Shown here in pieces: positions 28,941 through 35,462 of a stretch of DNA of 40,745 nucleotides. The position numbers and the translations under genes are program-made. Numbering within the stretch: position 1 is the stretch's first letter; each line of letters opens with the position of its first letter. The notes under the pieces are model-generated. The model had not been told where the DNA came from. It was given only the letters and a program-made list of their open reading frames with translations, and searched no databases. The DNA is from a virus. The stretch is from UHGV virus genome UHGV-0435673. One strand, written 5' to 3'.

Positions 28941-29740
28941 TCGGGCAGGTCAAGATCGATGATTTCAGAAACGTATCCGGGCCAGAGGCCGGACTTGGTG
29001 CAGGATGCGTATGTGCTGAGTGCGTCCTTGATTTCTTCAAGTCCGACTTGCTGCGCGTCCTCGCTGACGTTGGCGGCGGTGACAAGGTGGGGGGCGGTCT
29101 TCTCGACGGCGACGAGCACGAACACGCTGGAGTCCATGCCCACGGCCCGGAGTGCGCGGCGGTACCATACTGCCTGTCTGTGATATCCCCACTTGAGTAC
29201 AGAGCGGGCCAACCCTTCCGGGCTGGCGTCGTCCGTGCTTTTAAGGTCAACGGCGACGAGCCCGAACCCCGGCACGGTGGCAAGCATGTCCAGCCGGGCC
29301 TTGCATGGAATTTCGAGCCCGTCCACGGTTTCGCTCCAGTATATAGAGACTTCCGTCCGCTTATCCTTTGCAGTCATCAACTTGCCGATCAAAGGATGAA
29401 TCAGAACGGATTCCGCCATTGCCGAAGCTGCATTGTGTATTTTGGCTGGCACCAGTTCCAGCCCTGCGGCCTTGGCGGTCGCGGTTTCTTCCTTGCCCGC
29501 CTTGGTTGAGCCGTTGAATTGCTTTACGGCGTACCGTTTGCCGAATTCTCCGGGTTCGAGTGCAAGGCAGTGGAAAACAGAACCGAAAAGGAATGCTTCC
29601 GTTTCCTCTTCTGTAACGCCGTCCATCCAAGCTTTGAATTTGGCGGGGGCCTGCCTGAGCTTGTCCATACCGCTTTTGCTTATGGCGCGGGTGGCGTGGT
29701 AGACTTCTGGCGGTTCATTGAGCCGCATTTCCGGTTTCAT
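28910..29740 (-). CDS. PD-(D/E)XK recombination exonuclease (YqaJ/lambda-Exo-like)
   Basis: Motifs FGSVFH...VAVDLKST...WGYHRQAVWY match PD-(D/E)XK. Overlaps recT (RecET-like pair). Confidence 0.6.
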   Translation of the reverse strand: MKPEMRLNEPPEVYHATRAISKSGMDKLRQAPAKFKAWMDGVTEEETEAFLFGSVFHCLALEPGEFGKRYAVKQFNGSTKAGKEETATAKAAGLELVPAKIHNAASAMAESVLIHPLIGKLMTAKDKRTEVSIYWSETVDGLEIPCKARLDMLATVPGFGLVAVDLKSTDDASPEGLARSVLKWGYHRQAVWYRRALRAVGMDSSVFVLVAVEKTAPHLVTAANVSEDAQQVGLEEIKDALSTYASCTKSGLWPGYVSEIIDLDLPEWAYKRRFAA

Positions 29741-29967
29741 CGCATGGCCTCCATCCCGTACAAGATCTGTGGAAGAATGCAGATACCGAGCATGACAGCC
29801 ATAAAGATGATGACCGCAGCAACTCTAGCCCGGTCAACCTTTTTAGGCCGTTCCAAAGATACCTTGGCGTGCTTCATGTAGACGTTGGAAATCATGCCGC
29901 TGCCCTCCGTGCCATGATTTTGAGGTAGTTGGCCTTTGCCAGAAACGACCGTGCGGCGTTCTCGCAC
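29737..29967 (-). CDS. Small membrane protein
   Basis: AAVIIFMAVMLGICILPQIL TM segment. Confidence 0.3.
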   Translation of the reverse strand: MRERRTVVSGKGQLPQNHGTEGSGMISNVYMKHAKVSLERPKKVDRARVAAVIIFMAVMLGICILPQILYGMEAMR

Positions 29968-30098
29968 GCCGTGACCAGCGTCTCGGCGGTGTAGTATTCC
30001 GCGCAGGACGAGCAGATCCAGAAGTCGCGGTGCCTCCTGAGCCTCACGGCCTTGTCGTACTTGAGCTTGCAGTGCGGGCAGAAAATGGTGCCGTTCAT
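29892..30098 (-). CDS. Small Zn-ribbon protein (CPHC...CSSC)
   Basis: Start at the internal MNGTIFCPHCK, coupled to the upstream stop. Confidence 0.3.
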   Translation of the reverse strand: MNGTIFCPHCKLKYDKAVRLRRHRDFWICSSCAEYYTAETLVTACENAARSFLAKANYLKIMARRAAA

Positions 30099-30361
30099 GC
30101 CGCGTTCCTCCTCTTTTCCAACTTGTCCCGATACAGCGCGTACCTGTCGTGAAGTTCTGCGCTTACCCATCCCTCGCAGTGGGTGATCTTCTTCGGGTCG
30201 ATGGCAACCTCGGCATCGGCAAGCATGATGCCGAACCGTTCCTTGATGGCCTTCACCATGTCCGAAGAGATATTGCACAGCTGGTCGCTCTCGAAGTAGC
30301 GGGCGCAGGTTGCGCATACGTGGGGCTCATCTTCCGGTTCATATTCGTAGGGGTTACGCAT
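30095..30361 (-). CDS. Hypothetical 88-aa protein, first gene of the leftward early operon
   Basis: Acidic N-terminus, CATC...C..HC motif. Confidence 0.35.
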   Translation of the reverse strand: MRNPYEYEPEDEPHVCATCARYFESDQLCNISSDMVKAIKERFGIMLADAEVAIDPKKITHCEGWVSAELHDRYALYRDKLEKRRNAA

Positions 30362-30408
30362 GGCTGTATCCTCTTGGTTAAAGTTCGTTCCGGGGTCCCA
30401 GAACCAAT

Positions 30409-30434
30409 GAAAAAGCCCGGCGTAGTTCCGGGCT
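30409..30434 (-). terminator. Minus-strand intrinsic terminator between the PL leader and the first early-left gene
   Basis: + strand AAAAAGCCCGG-cgtagtt-CCGGGCT. The - strand reads stem then UUUUU. Confidence 0.4.
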
Positions 30435-30639
30435 TCGATGATTCAAGGCAAGCACCCGACGGGGCCAATCCCCGCCGGGGCGCGCTCCCATGCGGCACAT
30501 CTCAACGCATGGTTCGGCGCAACGCGCATTGTCGCTGCGCCTCTCATGCGGGGCGGTGAATTGTCAGAAAGTCAACTGACCGCCCGGATGTAGAAATTCG
30601 TATTTCATCGTTTCACGGCCCGATCTTTGTGTCGTAACC

Positions 30640-30900
30640 GTGGGCCCTGTTGGTCGGCTCGGCCCCCGTCGCTTCGGTGCGCTTTGCGCTTCGGCCTTCT
30701 TTTCAGCCGTTTTTCCGTCCCGCCGTCCCTGCGCGGCCTGTCTTCACATCACCAGTCTCACGGGCCTCTTTCGAGCTTTCCGGGCGGCCTCTTGCTCCGC
30801 CCACCGTATCCGCTACGGCCTTCATGCCGCCCAAAACGGCTTCCTTCTCACGGGGCATTCTGGCTACTTTCCGGCTAGGTGCCTGGCGTGTTCGCCTTCC
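30640..30900 (-). other. A-depleted noncoding tract (+ strand lacks A, so the leftward transcript is U-poor). Candidate structured leader or ncRNA.
   Basis: All three + frames are open here only because stop codons need A. No credible protein. Lies between OL/PL and the terminator at 30409-30434. Confidence 0.35.
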
Positions 30901-30914
30901 CCGTTCGTTGTGAA

Positions 30915-30975
30915 GACAATATATACGTATGCGAATTTTACGTCAATAAAAATTTCATATATGTATATATTGAAT
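30915..30975 (-). promoter_or_regulatory. OL/PL-like operator-promoter
   Basis: ATACGTAT (30923-30930) and TATATGTATATA (30958-30969) are identical to motifs at OR. - strand TTGACG-16 nt-ATATAT promoter-like hexamers overlap them. Confidence 0.45.
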
Positions 30976-31022
30976 CAAAAAATACCGCCGACACCACGAA
31001 GGCTCGGCGGTCACGCCCCATA

Positions 31023-31055
31023 GGGCACAAAAAAGCCCCTCACGAGGAGGGGCAA
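31023..31055 (-). terminator. Minus-strand terminator after the AT-rich moron
   Basis: - strand GCCCCTCCTCGTGAGGGGC followed by TTTTTTG. Confidence 0.45.
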
Positions 31056-31067
31056 AGGGAGGCTCCG

Positions 31068-31268
31068 TTAAGGTACTAATGGATTAATATTCATATTAGA
31101 TAGTTCGGTGATATTTTTATTTGTAAAATCAACTTGTTGAATAGGGTTTGTCTTGATGCCCATATTTTTTAAAATTAACATCATTTCATGATGATGTTTC
31201 AATGCTGGATTGTTTTCTATATTTTTAAGTAATAATGACATTTTATAATGCTTTTTGTCGATTTTCAT
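31068..31268 (-). CDS. 66-aa AT-rich small protein, partner of the Clp-fold protease
   Basis: Start codon overlaps the protease stop (ATG at 31268). K/N/I-rich. Confidence 0.4.
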   Translation of the reverse strand: MKIDKKHYKMSLLLKNIENNPALKHHHEMMLILKNMGIKTNPIQQVDFTNKNITELSNMNINPLVP

Positions 31269-32149
31269 TAGAGTAAACTCCCATTAGTCATTTCTCTAGT
31301 ATGTAAAAATAATTGATAGTTATATTTTGATGAAAAGTCAATCGCAAGTCTATTATATTCTTTTACTAATCTATATAATTTAAGGTCGTCTGAATAATCT
31401 TCAATCTTTAGCTTTAGATCGTCTTGAAGAGTTTTTATTCCTATATGTCTTCCATGTATATGCCAATGAGCATTATCACCTAATATTCTAGCTATTTCTT
31501 CAGCTCTATGCTCTTTTTCTTTAAGTGTGACTTCGGTATCTGTTTTACTATGAATTGTCCAGTCTTTAAATTTATAATTTACGAGCCATTTTTTTAATAG
31601 CGTTACGGTTATATTTCGTGCTTGTTGATAAAAATTTAAATCAGCAAGATTTAAATTTAAAGCCATTTGTAACTCTACTGGACTTATGGGGTTATTAGAA
31701 TCTTTATTTAATGATTTTTTACATATTGCATCAAATTGATCTAAATACCCTTGTGCAGGAACCCATTGTCCATTAGACAATACTTGAGGATCTATAGGGC
31801 CTAATGATGAGGCAAAATTCATATATATTTTGTCGCCAGACATGCAAAGAATAGTACCCGCTGAGTATGCATATTCATGTACAATGAAATATACTTCATC
31901 ATAGAACCTACGCATCACCTCAACCATTATCTCAGCCATTTCTACACTGCCGCCATTTGTTGTTAAATTGACAGCAAGAGATTTATGTTTTTTCTTTCTA
32001 GCTAATTTTTCAAATTCAGTGGTAAAGAATGTTCTGTGGTTAGGGTGAATACCACCATAAAACAAAAAAACATCAGACTGGAGATGTTCTTCTAGTTTAA
32101 TACAATAATTATTCAAAGCTTCATATGCAACTTTATCAACTGGACCCAT
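31268..32149 (-). CDS. Clp-fold serine protease of the S49/SDH (SppA-like) type with a 110-aa C-terminal extension
   Basis: LFYGGIHPN...LTTNGGSVEMAEIMVEVM and HEYAYSAGTILCMSGDKIYMNFASSLGPIDPQ fit the ClpP/SppA fold. Very AT-rich versus the flanks. Confidence 0.6.
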   Translation of the reverse strand: MGPVDKVAYEALNNYCIKLEEHLQSDVFLFYGGIHPNHRTFFTTEFEKLARKKKHKSLAVNLTTNGGSVEMAEIMVEVMRRFYDEVYFIVHEYAYSAGTILCMSGDKIYMNFASSLGPIDPQVLSNGQWVPAQGYLDQFDAICKKSLNKDSNNPISPVELQMALNLNLADLNFYQQARNITVTLLKKWLVNYKFKDWTIHSKTDTEVTLKEKEHRAEEIARILGDNAHWHIHGRHIGIKTLQDDLKLKIEDYSDDLKLYRLVKEYNRLAIDFSSKYNYQLFLHTREMTNGSLL

Positions 32150-32221
32150 TGCATCTCCCTCCTCCCCGCTCCGGCGGGGATTTTCATTTACAGCTCACGT
32201 CACGCCACGCCCACACGGTAA

Positions 32222-32875
32222 CTAAACAAGCTGCCAAGTCCAAACGACTTTCCCAATAATGATGTTGTCGTATCCCTCATTAGAAACTTTCTGTGGTTTC
32301 CATCTGGGATTGTCTGAATGGAGGATAATATTACCATCCTCATCTTGCATAACTCTTTTAACAACCAAACCAAATGGGGGACGCTGTACAAGGTAAATGC
32401 CGCCGTCCTCTAGTTCGTCGTCAAGAGGGATAACACCTACATAAGCCCCTTTTAAGATTGTAGGTTCCATACTGTCGCCAGTAACTTTAACGGCACGAAC
32501 ATCGGGAAGATTATACTGAGGGAGAACAGGGATCATATTTTCTGGAGCGGTAGAAAAAAATTCAGCTGGTAGTCCGGCACCTGCTTCTTCAAAGACAGGT
32601 ATCTCATGTAAGTTGTCCCCTGTTACGTTTTCAGTAGGAGAGTGACAGGCCATACGACGCATTACAGGATACCTTTCTTCATCCGGGAAAATCACCAATG
32701 CCCCCATAGCTGACAATATTTTTGATACCTTATCGAGCCCAAGTTGCTGGGCTTTGACCCCTAAAGCACGCGACAAGTTCGCCTGACTGACGCCACATTT
32801 TTGAGCAAATGCAGCTATCTGGCGTTGATCTGAAATGTCCCTCAACCGAGCCATGAGTTTTTCTTCTAGTTCCAT
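32222..32875 (-). CDS. CI-like repressor (HTH plus S24 LexA-like autopeptidase)
   Basis: HTH IAAFAQKCGVSQANLSRALG. C-terminal VTGDSMEPTILKGAYVGV...GGIYLV...VKRV with Ser/Lys dyad context. Alternative start at 32938. Confidence 0.7.
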   Translation of the reverse strand: MELEEKLMARLRDISDQRQIAAFAQKCGVSQANLSRALGVKAQQLGLDKVSKILSAMGALVIFPDEERYPVMRRMACHSPTENVTGDNLHEIPVFEEAGAGLPAEFFSTAPENMIPVLPQYNLPDVRAVKVTGDSMEPTILKGAYVGVIPLDDELEDGGIYLVQRPPFGLVVKRVMQDEDGNIILHSDNPRWKPQKVSNEGYDNIIIGKVVWTWQLV

Positions 32876-32967
32876 ACGTTCCTGCATACGATACTGAGGA
32901 CAAAAAGTCATCTTTCGTAAATGTAATTTTACTTGCATATAGATACGTATATGTATATACTTACGCC
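32876..32967. promoter_or_regulatory. OR-like divergent operator-promoter between cI and cro
   Basis: ATACGTAT (32943-32950), TATATGTATATA (32948-32959), variant ATACGATA (32886-32893). TTGCAT-17 nt-TATACT hexamers end 5 nt before the cro ATG. Confidence 0.45.
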
Positions 32968-33207
32968 ATGAACACCGAACTTTTCAGAACTCACTTGCGC
33001 GAAAGAATGCAGATTACCCGGGCAACCCAGATAGAAGTCGAAGAAAAGACTGGAGTTTCTCAGGCGTCGATTTCGCGTTTTTTGTCAGGGGCAAGGATTA
33101 ATTCTGACAACTTGTTCAAGTTATGGGAGTTCATTTACGAGGGGCAATTTCCAGCCGCTCCCAGCACTCCCACCGAACCCGAAGAGGTGAGTCATGGACT
33201 GGCCTGA
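32968..33207 (+). CDS. Cro-like HTH regulator
   Basis: Divergent from cI. HTH ATQIEVEEKTGVSQASISRFLSG. Confidence 0.55.
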   Translation: MNTELFRTHLRERMQITRATQIEVEEKTGVSQASISRFLSGARINSDNLFKLWEFIYEGQFPAAPSTPTEPEEVSHGLA

Positions 33208-33465
33208 TATCGCCGCGAAGGTGGCCTTCTTCGCCCTCATGGGGTTTATTTTCTGGCTTGATCGTGACTAACCCCGCCGCGCACCGCCGGGCCACAGCCT
33301 CGGGCGTCGGGTACTCCGCGACGCGGTACGCCCTCCAGCGTATCCGGGGATCCCTATGGATCAGGATGCGGACACGCCAGACGGCACGGTGGCGAGTGAT
33401 GAGCAGGTGAACGAAAGATTCCATGCCCCCATTAGAGCATGGGTATACACCAAGGAAAATGATCG

Positions 33466-33909
33466 ATGAATACCCAAGATTATAACACGTTGACGGAAGT
33501 TATCGAGGCCATGATCGATGAAGGCAAAAAGCCGATCAAGGCCATCGCCGCCGAGATCGGCAAGCCGTATCCGACTCTCAAGCGTGAGCTGAACCCGGCT
33601 GACGACGGCGCGAAGCTCGGAGCGGACGCACTACTCGGCATTATGGCCTCCTGTGGCTCAATCGCGCCCTTGGAATGGCTGGCGGACAGGCTCGGTTATG
33701 TCGTGAAGCCCAAGGAATGGGCAGAGCCAGACAAGAAAACATGGCCAGAAGAATGCGTTGATGACGCCGTGTGTGGCGGAAAGATGAATATGCTTATGCG
33801 GGAAAAAGCGCATCCGTCCATCGTCTCCAAGGCTGCGGAAGAACGGAAGGACGAGATAGACCAGACGAACACTCGGTATAGGCGAGATTACAACCAAGCG
33901 AGGCAGTAA
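33466..33909 (+). CDS. Putative early regulatory protein (CII position)
   Basis: 147 aa. RBS AAGGAAAA. Second gene of the rightward operon. Confidence 0.3.
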   Translation: MNTQDYNTLTEVIEAMIDEGKKPIKAIAAEIGKPYPTLKRELNPADDGAKLGADALLGIMASCGSIAPLEWLADRLGYVVKPKEWAEPDKKTWPEECVDDAVCGGKMNMLMREKAHPSIVSKAAEERKDEIDQTNTRYRRDYNQARQ

Positions 33910-33910
33910 A

Positions 33911-34309
33911 ATGCCGATCCTGATTTGCCAACAGTGCGGTCGGATGTTTGAAGTGAAACGGTACTTTGCCGAAACCGCAAAGTACTGCTCAAAAGAGTGC
34001 AAGGATAAGGCCGCACAGACGCGAGGGCCTCAAAAGTGCAAGTGCTGCGGAAAAGAATTTCCAGCGAAAGGGAATGCAGCTTTTTGCGACAAAGTTTGTG
34101 GGTATGCTTTCAGAGCCGGGGTGAGCCGCGAAGAATGGCTTGAAGCTCATCCACAGAGCAATCAGTCAACACTTTTCAAGCGTAAGTGCCATGACTGCGG
34201 GAAGCCCACAAACAATTACAGGTGTTCAGCTTGTTGGGAAAAGCTCCGCAGCGAATCTGAAACGGGTGGTATCCCGGAATACCAGGTTATGGGGCAGGCA
34301 TGGGTGTAG
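33911..34309 (+). CDS. Multi-CxxC Zn-finger protein
   Basis: CQQCG...CSKEC...CKCCG...CDKVCG...CHDCG...CSAC, six CxxC-like pairs. Confidence 0.35.
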   Translation: MPILICQQCGRMFEVKRYFAETAKYCSKECKDKAAQTRGPQKCKCCGKEFPAKGNAAFCDKVCGYAFRAGVSREEWLEAHPQSNQSTLFKRKCHDCGKPTNNYRCSACWEKLRSESETGGIPEYQVMGQAWV

Positions 34310-34500
34310 GCCCGTGCCGCTTGGGTCGGCTTCACCGTGATGGGCGGCGCGTCCTGTGTTTTGCGGACTGGTCGAAAGAGTACGGAGTCCCGGCGTGGAC
34401 GTCCCGAAACGGGTTCGTCAAAGACGTGAACTTCTGCCGCCTGTACTGCGAGAAGAGGCCGGATATGTTTGAAGTAGAACTTAAAGGTTCTAAGGCATAG
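34300..34500 (+). CDS. Hypothetical 66-aa protein
   Basis: Small coupled ORF. A weak hairpin follows (34517-34541). Confidence 0.25.
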   Translation: MGVGPCRLGRLHRDGRRVLCFADWSKEYGVPAWTSRNGFVKDVNFCRLYCEKRPDMFEVELKGSKA

Positions 34501-34565
34501 GCAAAAGAAAAGGCCCCCTGCGGGAACAGGGGGCAAAACACCAAAACAATCTCTATGGAAACATT

Positions 34566-35462
34566 ATGATGGAAACACAGGAAAAAGTCAACAGTTTCAT
34601 ACTCTATACGGAACAGTGGCCAGCAATTTCCTTGCTGAATGATGTTCAGCGTTCAACCCTCATGCAAGCGATCTTCGCACTGCATGGTGCATGTCAGATG
34701 CCTGAGCTTGATGACATGACCAAGGCGATTTTTCTTCTCATGAAGCCACGGTTTGAAGAGAACCGGGATCGGTATGCGACGAAGTGTGAAGCAAACCGGG
34801 AAAACGGGAAAAAGGGTGGCCGTCCACGCAAAAACAAAAACCAAACGGTTAATTATGAAAACCCAAAAACCGAACGGTTTTTAGACGAAAACCCAAAAAC
34901 CCTTACTGACTCTTATACTGACTCTGATTCTGATCCTGATTTTAAAACACCCCCACCCCTCACAGAGGGGCAGGGTGGGGGTGAGTCCGCTTTCGCTCAC
35001 GGGGAAGAAAAGCCCACACCTCGGGAACTCGGAACGAACCCACAGGCGCAAGGGACCAATCCCCGGCTCACTGGCGATAACCCCCGCGCTCAGGGAACAA
35101 ACCCCCGGGCGCAGGTCGAAACGTCATACCCGGACATGGCCTTTGTCCAGTTTCTCGATGCCTACGCGCCGGAAAAGAGGGATGAGGGCGCGGCTTGGCA
35201 AGCATGGCTTACGCTCTCACGGGCAAAACAGCTTCCGGGGCTCCCCAAGCTGCTTGATGCTGTCACAGCATGGGAAAACTCTGAGCAATGGCAGAAAGAT
35301 AATGGCCAGTACATCCCTCTGGCATCCAACTTTCTCAGCAAGCGGCGATTTCTCGATACGCCTCCTCAGCGCGCGGCTCCTGCTGACGAGTTTGATCCTG
35401 AGCGCTTTGCCAAGGCCGCTGAGCAATGGAAAAACAGGTACAAAACGACAGAGGGTGCATGA
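34566..35462 (+). CDS. Replisome organizer or replication initiation protein (N-terminal phage replisome-organizer-like domain)
   Basis: N-terminal FILYTEQWPAISLLNDVQRSTLMQAIFALHG. Repetitive linker. Position after cro and the CII-like gene. Confidence 0.5.
   Translation: MMETQEKVNSFILYTEQWPAISLLNDVQRSTLMQAIFALHGACQMPELDDMTKAIFLLMKPRFEENRDRYATKCEANRENGKKGGRPRKNKNQTVNYENPKTERFLDENPKTLTDSYTDSDSDPDFKTPPPLTEGQGGGESAFAHGEEKPTPRELGTNPQAQGTNPRLTGDNPRAQGTNPRAQVETSYPDMAFVQFLDAYAPEKRDEGAAWQAWLTLSRAKQLPGLPKLLDAVTAWENSEQWQKDNGQYIPLASNFLSKRRFLDTPPQRAAPADEFDPERFAKAAEQWKNRYKTTEGA
34828..34945 (+). repeat. Iteron-like direct repeats inside the replication gene (candidate ori)
   Basis: GAAAACCCAAAAACC twice (34857, 34887). 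AAAAACC(A/G)AACGGTT twice. TCTGAT/CCTGAT AT-rich run. Confidence 0.35.

What the first reader, a model, noticed from the sequence alone, without database searches (positions are those of the whole stretch)
31023..32221. AT-rich two-gene moron in the lambda rexAB slot: Clp-fold (S49/SDH-like) serine protease plus a 66-aa partner. Candidate uncharacterised exclusion or abortive-infection module.
The two genes sit between the CI repressor gene and OL/PL, co-oriented with cI. This is the classic locus where lambdoid prophages carry lysogen-expressed exclusion systems such as rexAB. Their codon usage is far more AT-rich than the flanking GC-rich phage backbone, so they look horizontally acquired. 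The 293-aa protein has the ClpP/SppA fold landmarks: GG..P, TNGGSVEMAEIM, and the Ser context YAYSAGTILCMSGDKIY...GPIDPQ. It also carries a roughly 110-aa C-terminal extension of unknown function. The 66-aa ORF is translationally coupled: its ATG at 31268 overlaps the protease stop. A terminator (31023-31055) closes the unit. I cannot match this protease-plus-small-protein pair to any defence family I can name.
Basis: partly seen in the sequence, partly recalled or inferred. Interest (0 to 1): 0.85.

Follow-up and report, generated by a model that had tools for sequence, protein, structure and literature searches.

The report
Prophage protease-plus-small-partner cassette beside repressor
A Bilophila prophage carries, right behind its repressor gene, an AT-rich two-gene cassette (a ClpP-fold serine protease plus a 66-residue partner) that recurs as a fixed pair in many bacterial phyla and sits in the rexAB position of E. 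coli lambda-like prophages, which makes it a good but untested candidate for a new phage-exclusion or toxin-antitoxin-like system.

Summary
The two ORFs, the 1-nt stop/start overlap, the low GC, the terminator and the position between cI and OL/PL are all as described.

The main new result concerns the small partner. It is conserved, not incidental. A co-oriented ORF of about 50-90 aa follows the protease in more than 90% of about 150 loci from over 15 phyla, and most of these ORFs form one sequence family.

In viral contigs, the nearest upstream gene is a cI-type repressor in 27 of 60 non-redundant cases. In an E. coli lambdoid prophage the pair lies exactly between cI and N.

In E. coli the protease has been deleted or IS-disrupted while the partner stayed intact. 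I saw no case of the reverse.

Best reading: a lysogen-expressed, protease-based exclusion or TA-like module in which the partner restrains the protease. Function is untested.

The parts
32150..32216 (-). Cassette leader. Similarity between sister prophages with non-homologous repressors begins at 32216, 6 nt after the cI stop. It contains a GC hairpin (32180-32163, no U-run on this strand) abutting the Shine-Dalgarno GGAGGGAG (32162-32155).
31268..32149 (-). Gene for the 293-aa Clp-fold serine peptidase. Landmarks: oxyanion-type motif TNGG (res 64-67); nucleophile Ser96 (codon 31864-31862); invariant Lys145 (31717-31715); GPIDPQ (117-122); family-specific helical C-terminal domain with invariant W229-H230-x-H232-G-R234.
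31068..31268 (-). Gene for the 66-aa partner protein, translationally coupled (TAATG). It is a divergent member of the small-partner family that follows this protease family-wide.
31027..31053 (-). Intrinsic terminator 1 (7-bp GC stem plus U-run) that closes the cI-protease-partner transcription unit.
30977..31011 (-). Second hairpin plus U-run (tandem terminator) that insulates the unit from PL.
32222..32938 (-). Context: cI-type repressor (HTH + Peptidase_S24), co-oriented and immediately upstream. No promoter-like site was found between it and the protease.
30917..30972 (-). Context: OL/PL. Promoter TTGACG-17-TATATT (30946..30918) sits inside a 23-nt inverted repeat whose half-sites recur at OR (32937-32977).

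Best explanation
The unit is a self-contained, horizontally mobile two-gene cassette: leader, protease, partner, terminators. In this Bilophila wadsworthia prophage it is read through from the repressor promoter, so it is expressed in the lysogen like lambda rexAB.

The large protein is a cytoplasmic ClpP/SppA-fold serine peptidase. Ser96 is the nucleophile. The general base is most likely the invariant Lys145, as in SppA/NfeD-type Ser-Lys peptidases, because the ClpP histidine position appears to be Asp120.

The small protein is its dedicated partner. It is made in fixed stoichiometry through translational coupling. It consists of two short helices followed by an extended conserved segment.

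I propose that the partner binds the protease and holds it inactive, as an inhibitor or pseudo-substrate. I further propose that infection by another phage removes this restraint, either by shutting off partner synthesis or through a phage trigger. The protease would then cleave phage or essential host proteins and block phage production. This would be a toxin-antitoxin-like exclusion or abortive-infection mechanism.

Shown here: the anatomy, the fold, the nucleophile alignment, the obligate pairing, and the recurrent position next to repressors.

Inferred: co-transcription with cI, the Ser-Lys dyad, inhibition by the partner, and the anti-phage role.

For: Obligate pair. A same-strand ORF of about 50-90 aa lies close to the protease stop. 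The distance is -4 to about +25 nt in most loci once over-long ORF starts are trimmed, and up to about 110 nt in a few. This holds in about 84 of 87 genome loci and in nearly all viral loci. Most of these ORFs form one family with the motif ..G..kk.eY.lPplDTIGR. They have no Pfam or NCBIfam family.

Lysogen-expressed slot. The nearest upstream gene is an S24/HTH repressor in 27 of 60 non-redundant viral loci. The same arrangement occurs in 60%-identical Desulfovibrionaceae prophages. In an E. coli lambdoid prophage the order is cro-cI-protease-partner-N-ral-cIII-kil-gam-bet-exo. In the window there is no promoter-like site between cI and the protease, and tandem terminators follow the partner.

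Mobility. The cassette is AT-richer than its flanks in 137 of 160 loci. It stays conserved while the repressor allele is swapped. It is found next to a type I R-M system, on an element with ParA and SIR2 genes, and inserted into a suf operon beside a ParE/YoeB toxin-antitoxin pair.

Direction of dependence. In E. coli, three genomes keep the partner alone after cI with the protease deleted. One genome has an IS3 element in the protease with the partner intact. No E. coli genome has the protease without the partner. This is the decay pattern expected if the protease is the harmful component.

Partner structure. The model of an archetypal partner shows the conserved motif in an extended, non-helical segment.

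Precedent. ietAS is both a TA system and an anti-phage system with a serine-protease toxin (PMC13069673).
Against: There is no experimental phenotype.

Neither protein matches any PADLOC v2 model.

Chromosomal neighbours are mostly housekeeping genes, with only a few R-M or Schlafen-type genes among 118 neighbours. Defence-island enrichment is therefore weak and was not measured against a baseline.

The E. coli decay pattern rests on only two independent events.

The window's own partner has lost the DTIGR motif. Its homology to the main partner family is only probable (hhalign probability 22%, E 1e-3).

I could not model the complex. I also could not inspect the 3-D position of Lys145 or of the His residues, because no coordinates are exposed. 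The dyad and the inhibitor role are therefore inferences.

The family is almost absent from sequenced, isolated phages.
Confidence: 0.4

Rival explanations
1. A pure addiction (toxin-antitoxin) module. The protease is a toxin and the partner a labile antitoxin. The cassette only stabilises itself and the prophage or mobile element that carries it, with no role against other phages.
For: It is a free-standing two-gene cassette inserted among housekeeping genes and next to other TA pairs. It is persistently AT-rich. Orphan-partner and protease-loss variants exist. The ietAS precedent was first described as a plasmid-stability TA system.
Against: The partner has no DNA-binding domain for autoregulation. 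The gene order is toxin first. The strong preference for the repressor-adjacent, lysogen-expressed slot in unrelated prophages is what known exclusion genes show. TA and abortive-infection roles are not mutually exclusive.
Confidence: 0.2
2. The partner is the substrate or pro-form, not the inhibitor. The protease processes the small protein at its conserved extended motif, releasing an active peptide or effector. This would resemble protease-activated effectors such as bacterial gasdermins or CalpL-CalpT.
For: The conserved extended motif follows a Gly hinge. The genes are tightly coupled. SppA-type enzymes bind extended C-terminal peptides in the active site (PDB 4kwb title).
Against: The partner is small and hydrophilic, with no membrane or enzymatic domain. 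Its C-terminal motif is highly variable in prophage copies. The partner persists alone in E. coli prophages without the protease, which would make it useless under this model.
Confidence: 0.12
3. An ordinary accessory protease with a non-conflict role, such as protein quality control or stress adaptation, carried as a fitness-conferring moron with the small protein as an adaptor.
For: Most chromosomal neighbours are housekeeping genes. There is no match to defence models. Clp/SppA-fold enzymes usually have housekeeping roles.
Against: The distribution is patchy. Composition is foreign in 137 of 160 loci. It recurs in the prophage immunity slot. The partner tail diversifies rapidly.
Confidence: 0.12
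4. An immunity-region regulatory protease, analogous to ImmA. It would cleave or modulate the adjacent repressor or another lysis-lysogeny regulator and so tune induction.
For: The repressor-then-protease operon order resembles immR-immA (own knowledge). The cassette sits directly after repressors in 27 of 60 viral loci.
Against: The adjacent repressors already carry their own S24 self-cleavage domain. The identical cassette sits behind non-homologous repressors. Most family members are in chromosomes with no repressor nearby.
Confidence: 0.05

Closest known systems
Lambda rexAB (and other repressor-adjacent prophage exclusion genes such as BstA of BTP1)
   Same: Same genomic slot and expression logic. 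It lies between cI and OL/PL (N), is co-oriented with cI, is closed by a terminator, and behaves as a moron with foreign composition. In an E. coli lambdoid prophage the pair occupies the cI-N interval itself.
   Different: The proteins are unrelated. The only Pfam hits are Clp-type families, not RexA/RexB, and there is no PADLOC hit. RexB is a membrane protein, whereas neither protein here has a membrane segment. The effector here is a peptidase.
SppA (S49) / NfeD 1510-N / ClpP (S14) peptidases, and the SDH proteinase family (PF01972)
   Different: It reaches only 46-57 bits against a cut-off of 250 on the NCBIfam SDH equivalog. The Pfam match covers only 70 of 286 profile positions. There is no signal peptide or membrane anchor, unlike SppA and NfeD. 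By eye, the ClpP His position reads Asp (IDPQ versus IHQP). It has its own conserved C-terminal domain with WHxHGR. It always comes with a small partner gene.
ietAS (serine-protease toxin plus ATPase antitoxin; TA and anti-phage system)
   Same: A two-gene module in which a serine protease is the harmful effector and the second protein neutralises it. It is known both as a stability TA and as a defence system (PMC13069673).
   Different: To my knowledge IetS is subtilisin-like, not Clp-fold, and IetA is a large AAA ATPase, not a 55-80-aa protein. There is no sequence relationship (no PADLOC hit).
ClpP-related / S49 prohead maturation proteases of phages (e.g. lambda gpC)
   Same: Weak profile similarity over the catalytic core (phrog_53 and phrog_1684 at E 1e-5 to 1e-7; NF045542 at 33 bits).
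   Different: It lies in the immunity region, not the head-gene cluster. It falls far below those families' cut-offs. It occurs widely outside phages. Its best PHROG is phrog_11747, of unknown function (E 2.8e-56).

Membership tests
ClpP/SppA-type serine peptidases (Clp fold) | ClpP/crotonase alpha-beta fold | tested here: met
ClpP/SppA-type serine peptidases (Clp fold) | Nucleophilic Ser in the conserved A-x-S-x-G turn, with an upstream PGG oxyanion motif | tested here: met
   The profile alignment puts 'dyamSaGt' on ClpP 'gmaaSmGt' and 'ntpGGsve' on 'ntpGGsvs'. S96 and G66/G67 are invariant in 35 homologues.
ClpP (S14) proper | Ser-His-Asp triad with His in the I-H-Q-P motif | tested here: inconclusive
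   The family has I-D-P-Q (119-122) where ClpP has I-H-Q-P, by my own reading. The HMM alignments stop at position 108 and no model coordinates were available. Lys145 and His230/His232 are invariant candidates for the general base.
Pfam PF01972 SDH_protease | Score at or above the gathering threshold | tested here: met
   34.9 bits against 31.3, but only residues 56-125 match profile positions 92-161 of 286. Precomputed PF01972 hits exist on almost all homologues.
NCBIfam NF047768 'SDH family Clp fold serine proteinase' (equivalog) | Score at or above the curated cut-off (250 bits) | tested here: not met
   45.8 bits for the window protein. The E. coli, P0055 and P0004 homologues score 54-57 bits. 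RefSeq nevertheless names the E. coli copies this way.
PHROG phrog_11747 (unknown function) | Full-length profile match | tested here: met
   E 2.8e-56, residues 10-269 on profile positions 6-259 of 290.
Any known or candidate defence system in PADLOC-DB v2.0.0 | Match of either protein to a system model | tested here: not met
   No family at E <= 1 for either protein. DefenseFinder and later model sets were not available.
Lambda RexAB-type exclusion module | Position between cI and OL/PL, co-oriented with cI, expressed in the lysogen | tested here: met
   Position and orientation are shown. Expression in the lysogen is inferred, not measured.
Lambda RexAB-type exclusion module | RexA/RexB homology | tested here: not met
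   Pfam lists only Clp-type families for the large protein and nothing for the small one.
Type II toxin-antitoxin modules | Two adjacent, co-transcribed small genes that travel together | tested here: met
   Stop/start overlap. The pair is kept in more than 90% of loci across phyla.
Type II toxin-antitoxin modules | Toxicity of one product, neutralised by direct binding of the other | not testable with these tools
   Only indirect evidence exists: protease loss with partner retention in E. coli.

The most novel reading that the evidence does not exclude
The pair defines a new, widespread family of protease-based immune modules. A self-contained ClpP-fold Ser-Lys peptidase is held in check by a dedicated pseudo-substrate mini-protein of about 55-80 aa and is released on phage infection. 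The module is carried in the rexAB slot of prophages from Desulfovibrionaceae to E. coli and as a free cassette in more than 15 phyla. Orphan partner genes in competing prophages would then act as antidotes.
Probability: 0.3. Interest if true: 0.8.

Novelty: new variant of a known kind. Interest (0 to 1): 0.66.

Why it matters
If the cassette is an exclusion or abortive-infection system, it adds a mechanistically new effector class to bacterial immunity: a Clp-fold peptidase regulated by a mini-protein. It would also be one of the few candidate exclusion cargoes described for prophages of the gut pathobiont Bilophila.

The same pair sits between cI and N in E. coli lambdoid prophages. The hypothesis can therefore be tested directly with standard lambda genetics and existing E. 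coli phage panels.

The partner family is unannotated and probably often not called as a gene. Its conservation shows that 'SDH family Clp fold serine proteinase' entries in RefSeq are really two-gene units.

The natural orphan-partner prophages suggest an antidote, or anti-defence, layer worth testing.

Tried and rejected
Identity of the window. Megablast of 29000-35000 against sequenced phages found nothing. tblastn of the window and E. coli proteases against the same collection found only distant relatives at 26-31% identity, in Gordonia BeeGee gp31, Shewanella MuM16-1, Klebsiella phi12.4 and Porphyromonas phages. No close model phage exists.

Known defence systems. PADLOC gave no hits.

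Literature. Nine full-text searches found no paper on this pair.

Defence-island test. I scanned 118 neighbours of 32 chromosomal loci. A few are type I/IIG R-M, ResIII, Schlafen/AlbA or PDC-S05 genes, but most are housekeeping. The tool returns only per-family counts and I had no baseline, so I treat this as weak evidence.

Complex modelling. The afdb50 fold library was unavailable. Model coordinates are not exposed, so the position of Lys145 and His230/232 relative to Ser96 could not be checked.

Rosetta-stone fusion. Relative P0260 (398 aa) has no downstream small ORF. It ends in two tandem 'AGIEVK.GADY[SN]IEPALG[GR]G' repeats that look like the partner motif by eye. However, hmmsearch scores it below shuffled controls, and hhalign gives 2.7% probability. 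I did not accept it as evidence.

Orphan partner genes in sequenced phages (a possible anti-defence role). None were found.

Plasmids. Only 7 of 72,556 carry a relative.

Structured RNAs. Rfam gave no hit in 29500-34000.

ImmA-like anti-repressor idea. I rejected it as the general function, because the cassette is mostly found without any repressor and sits behind non-homologous repressors.
Full report
**1. The observation**

A 293-aa ORF lies at 31268..32149 and a 66-aa ORF at 31068..31268, both on the minus strand. The protease stop and the partner start share one base, giving TAATG.

GC falls to 27-35% across the pair, against 55-62% on either side. A GC hairpin with a U-run at 31053..31035 closes the unit. 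A second hairpin plus U-run follows at 31011..30984. The two fold together at -40.6 kcal/mol, z = -2.9.

Immediately upstream on the same strand is a 238-aa HTH + Peptidase_S24 repressor at 32222..32938, with a divergent Cro-like gene beyond it. Downstream is a leftward sigma-70-type promoter (TTGACG-17-TATATT, 30946..30918). It lies inside inverted repeats whose half-sites recur between cI and cro, so it is OL/PL.

No promoter-like site separates cI from the protease. The 72-nt spacer holds a hairpin without a U-run that abuts a strong Shine-Dalgarno sequence. The anatomy is therefore that of a cI-linked moron in the lambda rexAB position.

**2. Where the window comes from**

The same protein sequence is on record in 170 blocks of public assemblies. 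The window region 30000-33500 is 100% identical to a 40.8-kb gut-metagenome contig. The cassette is also present in Bilophila wadsworthia ATCC 49260.

In sister prophages the cassette is 94-100% identical while the repressor next to it is replaced by a non-homologous 244-aa allele. Similarity begins at 32216, 6 nt after the cI stop. The leader, both genes and the terminators therefore behave as one unit.

**3. The large protein**

Profile and family searches:
- Pfam PF01972 (SDH_protease) is passed narrowly, at 34.9 bits against 31.3, and only over residues 56-125.
- CLP_protease and NfeD1b_N also match weakly.
- The NCBIfam equivalog for the SDH family is far from met. The window protein scores 45.8 bits against a cut-off of 250. 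E. coli and other homologues score 54-57 bits.
- The best family match is phrog_11747, of unknown function (E 2.8e-56).

Structure:
- An AlphaFold model built on 35 homologues is confident (pLDDT 91).
- Foldseek's best PDB hits are B. subtilis SppA and the NfeD protease 1510-N, with ClpP also matched.

Active site: a profile of the family places Ser96 on the ClpP nucleophile and the TNGG motif on the ClpP PGG motif.

Conservation: in the alignment, S96, K145, the GPIDPQ stretch and a C-terminal W-H-x-H-G-R motif are invariant.

C-terminal region: the last roughly 110-140 residues are not matched by solved Clp-fold structures. They are conserved throughout the family, and giant-virus 'serine dehydrogenase proteinases' align over nearly the full length at TM 0.55-0.6. 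This region is therefore family architecture, not an extension peculiar to this protein.

Catalytic base: ClpP's histidine position appears to be Asp here (my reading of IDPQ against IHQP), and a Lys is invariant 49 residues after the Ser. A Ser-Lys dyad of the SppA/NfeD type is therefore the most likely chemistry. I could not check this in 3-D.

**4. The small protein is a conserved partner**

I fetched 79 loci from one-genome-per-species contigs. I also fetched 80 viral contigs.

A same-strand ORF of about 50-90 aa lies close to the protease stop. The distance is -4 to about +25 nt in most loci once over-long ORF starts are trimmed, and up to about 110 nt in a few. This holds in about 84 of 87 genome loci and in nearly all viral loci.

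Most of these small proteins align as one family: an N-terminal helical part, a nearly invariant Gly, then '..kk.eY.lPplDTIGR..'. Variants include:
- enterobacterial prophage copies with '..GLLn.P.F.LAYGP';
- Desulfovibrionaceae copies, including the window's, with 'A..HH..lM..LK.MG..pNP.Q'.

The window's partner has clear relatives in sister cassettes: 86% identity where the protease is 90% identical, and E = 0.001 to the partner of a 61%-identical protease. Its link to the main partner family is collinear but statistically weak (hhalign probability 22%, E 1e-3). I treat it as a probable divergent member.

No Pfam or NCBIfam model covers the partners. All database copies are 'hypothetical protein'.

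A model of an archetypal partner shows helices at 5-14 and 22-36. The conserved motif follows in an extended segment at 37-50, then a low-confidence helix (pLDDT 72.6).

**5. Context**

- Viral contigs. Among 60 non-redundant upstream neighbours, 27 carry Peptidase_S24 and 25 carry HTH_3. These are cI-type repressors, usually on the same strand and within about 10-430 nt.
- Other Desulfovibrionaceae prophages. A 60%-identical homologue shows S24 repressor, then protease, then a 73-77-aa partner.
- E. coli. In strain PCP06235 the RefSeq annotation reads cro, cI ('LexA family protein'), 'SDH family Clp fold serine proteinase', hypothetical 56 aa, N, ral, cIII, kil, gam, bet, exo. This is the rexAB interval itself.
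- Outside prophages. The pair lies next to a type I R-M system with a Schlafen/AlbA ATPase. It is also on an element with ParA and SIR2 genes, and inside a suf operon beside a ParE/YoeB pair.
- Broad neighbour scan. A scan of 118 chromosomal neighbours shows mostly housekeeping genes with a few R-M-type hits. The defence-island signal is weak.
- Composition. The cassette is AT-richer than its flanks by a mean of 10.5 points. It is more than 5 points lower in 137 of 160 loci and never more than 5 points higher.
- Family size. The family comprises 361 clusters (50% identity) at E <= 1e-30 in 1.84 billion representatives.
- Rarity. It is in about 0.3% of complete E. coli genomes, on 7 of 72,556 plasmids, and essentially absent from isolated, sequenced phages.

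**6. Which partner depends on which**

Among the 20 E. coli genomes with a match:
- Three carry a related prophage in which cI is followed by the partner gene alone. The protease, and a small membrane-protein gene, are absent, and the junction retains the last codons of the protease gene.
- One has an IS3-family element inserted in the 5' end of the protease gene with the partner intact.
- None has the protease without the partner.

These are only two independent events. Still, this is the decay pattern expected when the protease is the potentially harmful component and the partner is protective.

**7. Mechanism**

The best-supported reading is a lysogen-expressed, TA-like exclusion or abortive-infection cassette. 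A cytoplasmic Clp-fold Ser(-Lys) peptidase is the effector. The translationally coupled mini-protein restrains it, plausibly by placing its extended conserved segment in the catalytic cleft. Infection relieves the restraint.

The serine-protease toxin of ietAS is a precedent for a protease acting in both TA and anti-phage roles (PMC13069673).

I put about 0.4 on this overall picture. The steps from 'pair' to 'inhibitor' and from 'slot' to 'defence' are inferred. The rivals are:
- a pure addiction module (0.2);
- a protease that activates the small protein (0.12);
- a non-conflict accessory protease (0.12);
- an ImmA-like regulator of the neighbouring repressor (0.05).

The last rival is disfavoured because the repressors carry their own S24 domain, the cassette sits behind unrelated repressors, and most family members have no repressor nearby.

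**8. Comparison and novelty**

By location and expression logic the cassette works like rexAB. By fold it belongs with the SppA/NfeD/ClpP/SDH peptidases. By proposed logic it resembles ietAS. It is a member of none of the characterised systems:
- no RexA/RexB homology;
- no PADLOC model;
- below the NCBIfam SDH cut-off.

I found no publication on the pair in the searchable library, which does not cover subscription-only journals. I classify it as a new variant of a known kind: a prophage immunity-region exclusion or TA-type module built from uncharacterised components. Function is still to be shown.

**9. Verdict**

It gains strength from two results:
- the small ORF is an obligate, family-wide partner;
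- the pair occupies the cI-N interval in E. coli lambdoid prophages, which makes it directly testable.

Interest 0.66.

Noticed in passing
L180 3179-4184 (E. coli FHI_NMBU_10; also two other genomes, H37, H38): In this lambdoid prophage the cI gene is followed by the 56-aa partner gene alone. The protease is deleted, but the last codons of its gene remain at the junction. This could be an orphan 'antidote' against the intact system of related prophages.
   Followed up: partly
L182 2515-4644 (E. coli CP52E): An IS3-family element (ISEc52) is inserted in the 5' end of the protease gene. The partner gene is intact.
   Followed up: partly
L181 3660-3821 (E. coli 2015C-3121): A 53-aa 'transmembrane anchored protein' gene sits between cI and the protease in an STEC prophage, and a HicAB pair follows the cassette. 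Several morons are stacked in the same slot.
   Followed up: no
L005 11970-12230; L001/L002 11837-12310: Sister Bilophila prophages carry a Tad2-like (PF11195, anti-Thoeris family) gene and a SocA_Panacea-domain gene in their early-left operons.
   Followed up: no
window 30450-30900: There is a leader of about 450 nt between PL and the first early-left genes. It is 62% GC, has a strong T-over-A skew on the + strand (AT skew -0.56) and is ORF-poor. Only a 51-aa ORF (30703-30858, -) is called in related contigs. Rfam gives no hit. It could hold an N/nut-like antitermination element.
   Followed up: partly
window 32163-32180: The GC hairpin between cI and the protease reads as an intrinsic terminator only on the + strand (a T-run follows it there). 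On the coding (-) strand it abuts the Shine-Dalgarno sequence. The E. coli cassette has no equivalent hairpin (L172 6746-6817).
   Followed up: partly
P0269, P0281, P0286 (distant protease relatives): A more distant subfamily carries a C-terminal CxxC...CxxC zinc-ribbon domain fused to the protease.
   Followed up: no
L189 3001-4197 (P0260): This 398-aa relative has no downstream small ORF. It ends in two tandem 'AGIEVK.GADY[SN]IEPALG[GR]G' repeats that resemble the partner motif by eye. The similarity is not statistically supported.
   Followed up: yes
L188 4785-5747 (Gordonia phage BeeGee gp31): The closest relative in an isolated phage (about 30% identity) lies between the tail/lysis genes and the integrase. 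To my knowledge this is the region where actinophages carry prophage-expressed defence genes.
   Followed up: no
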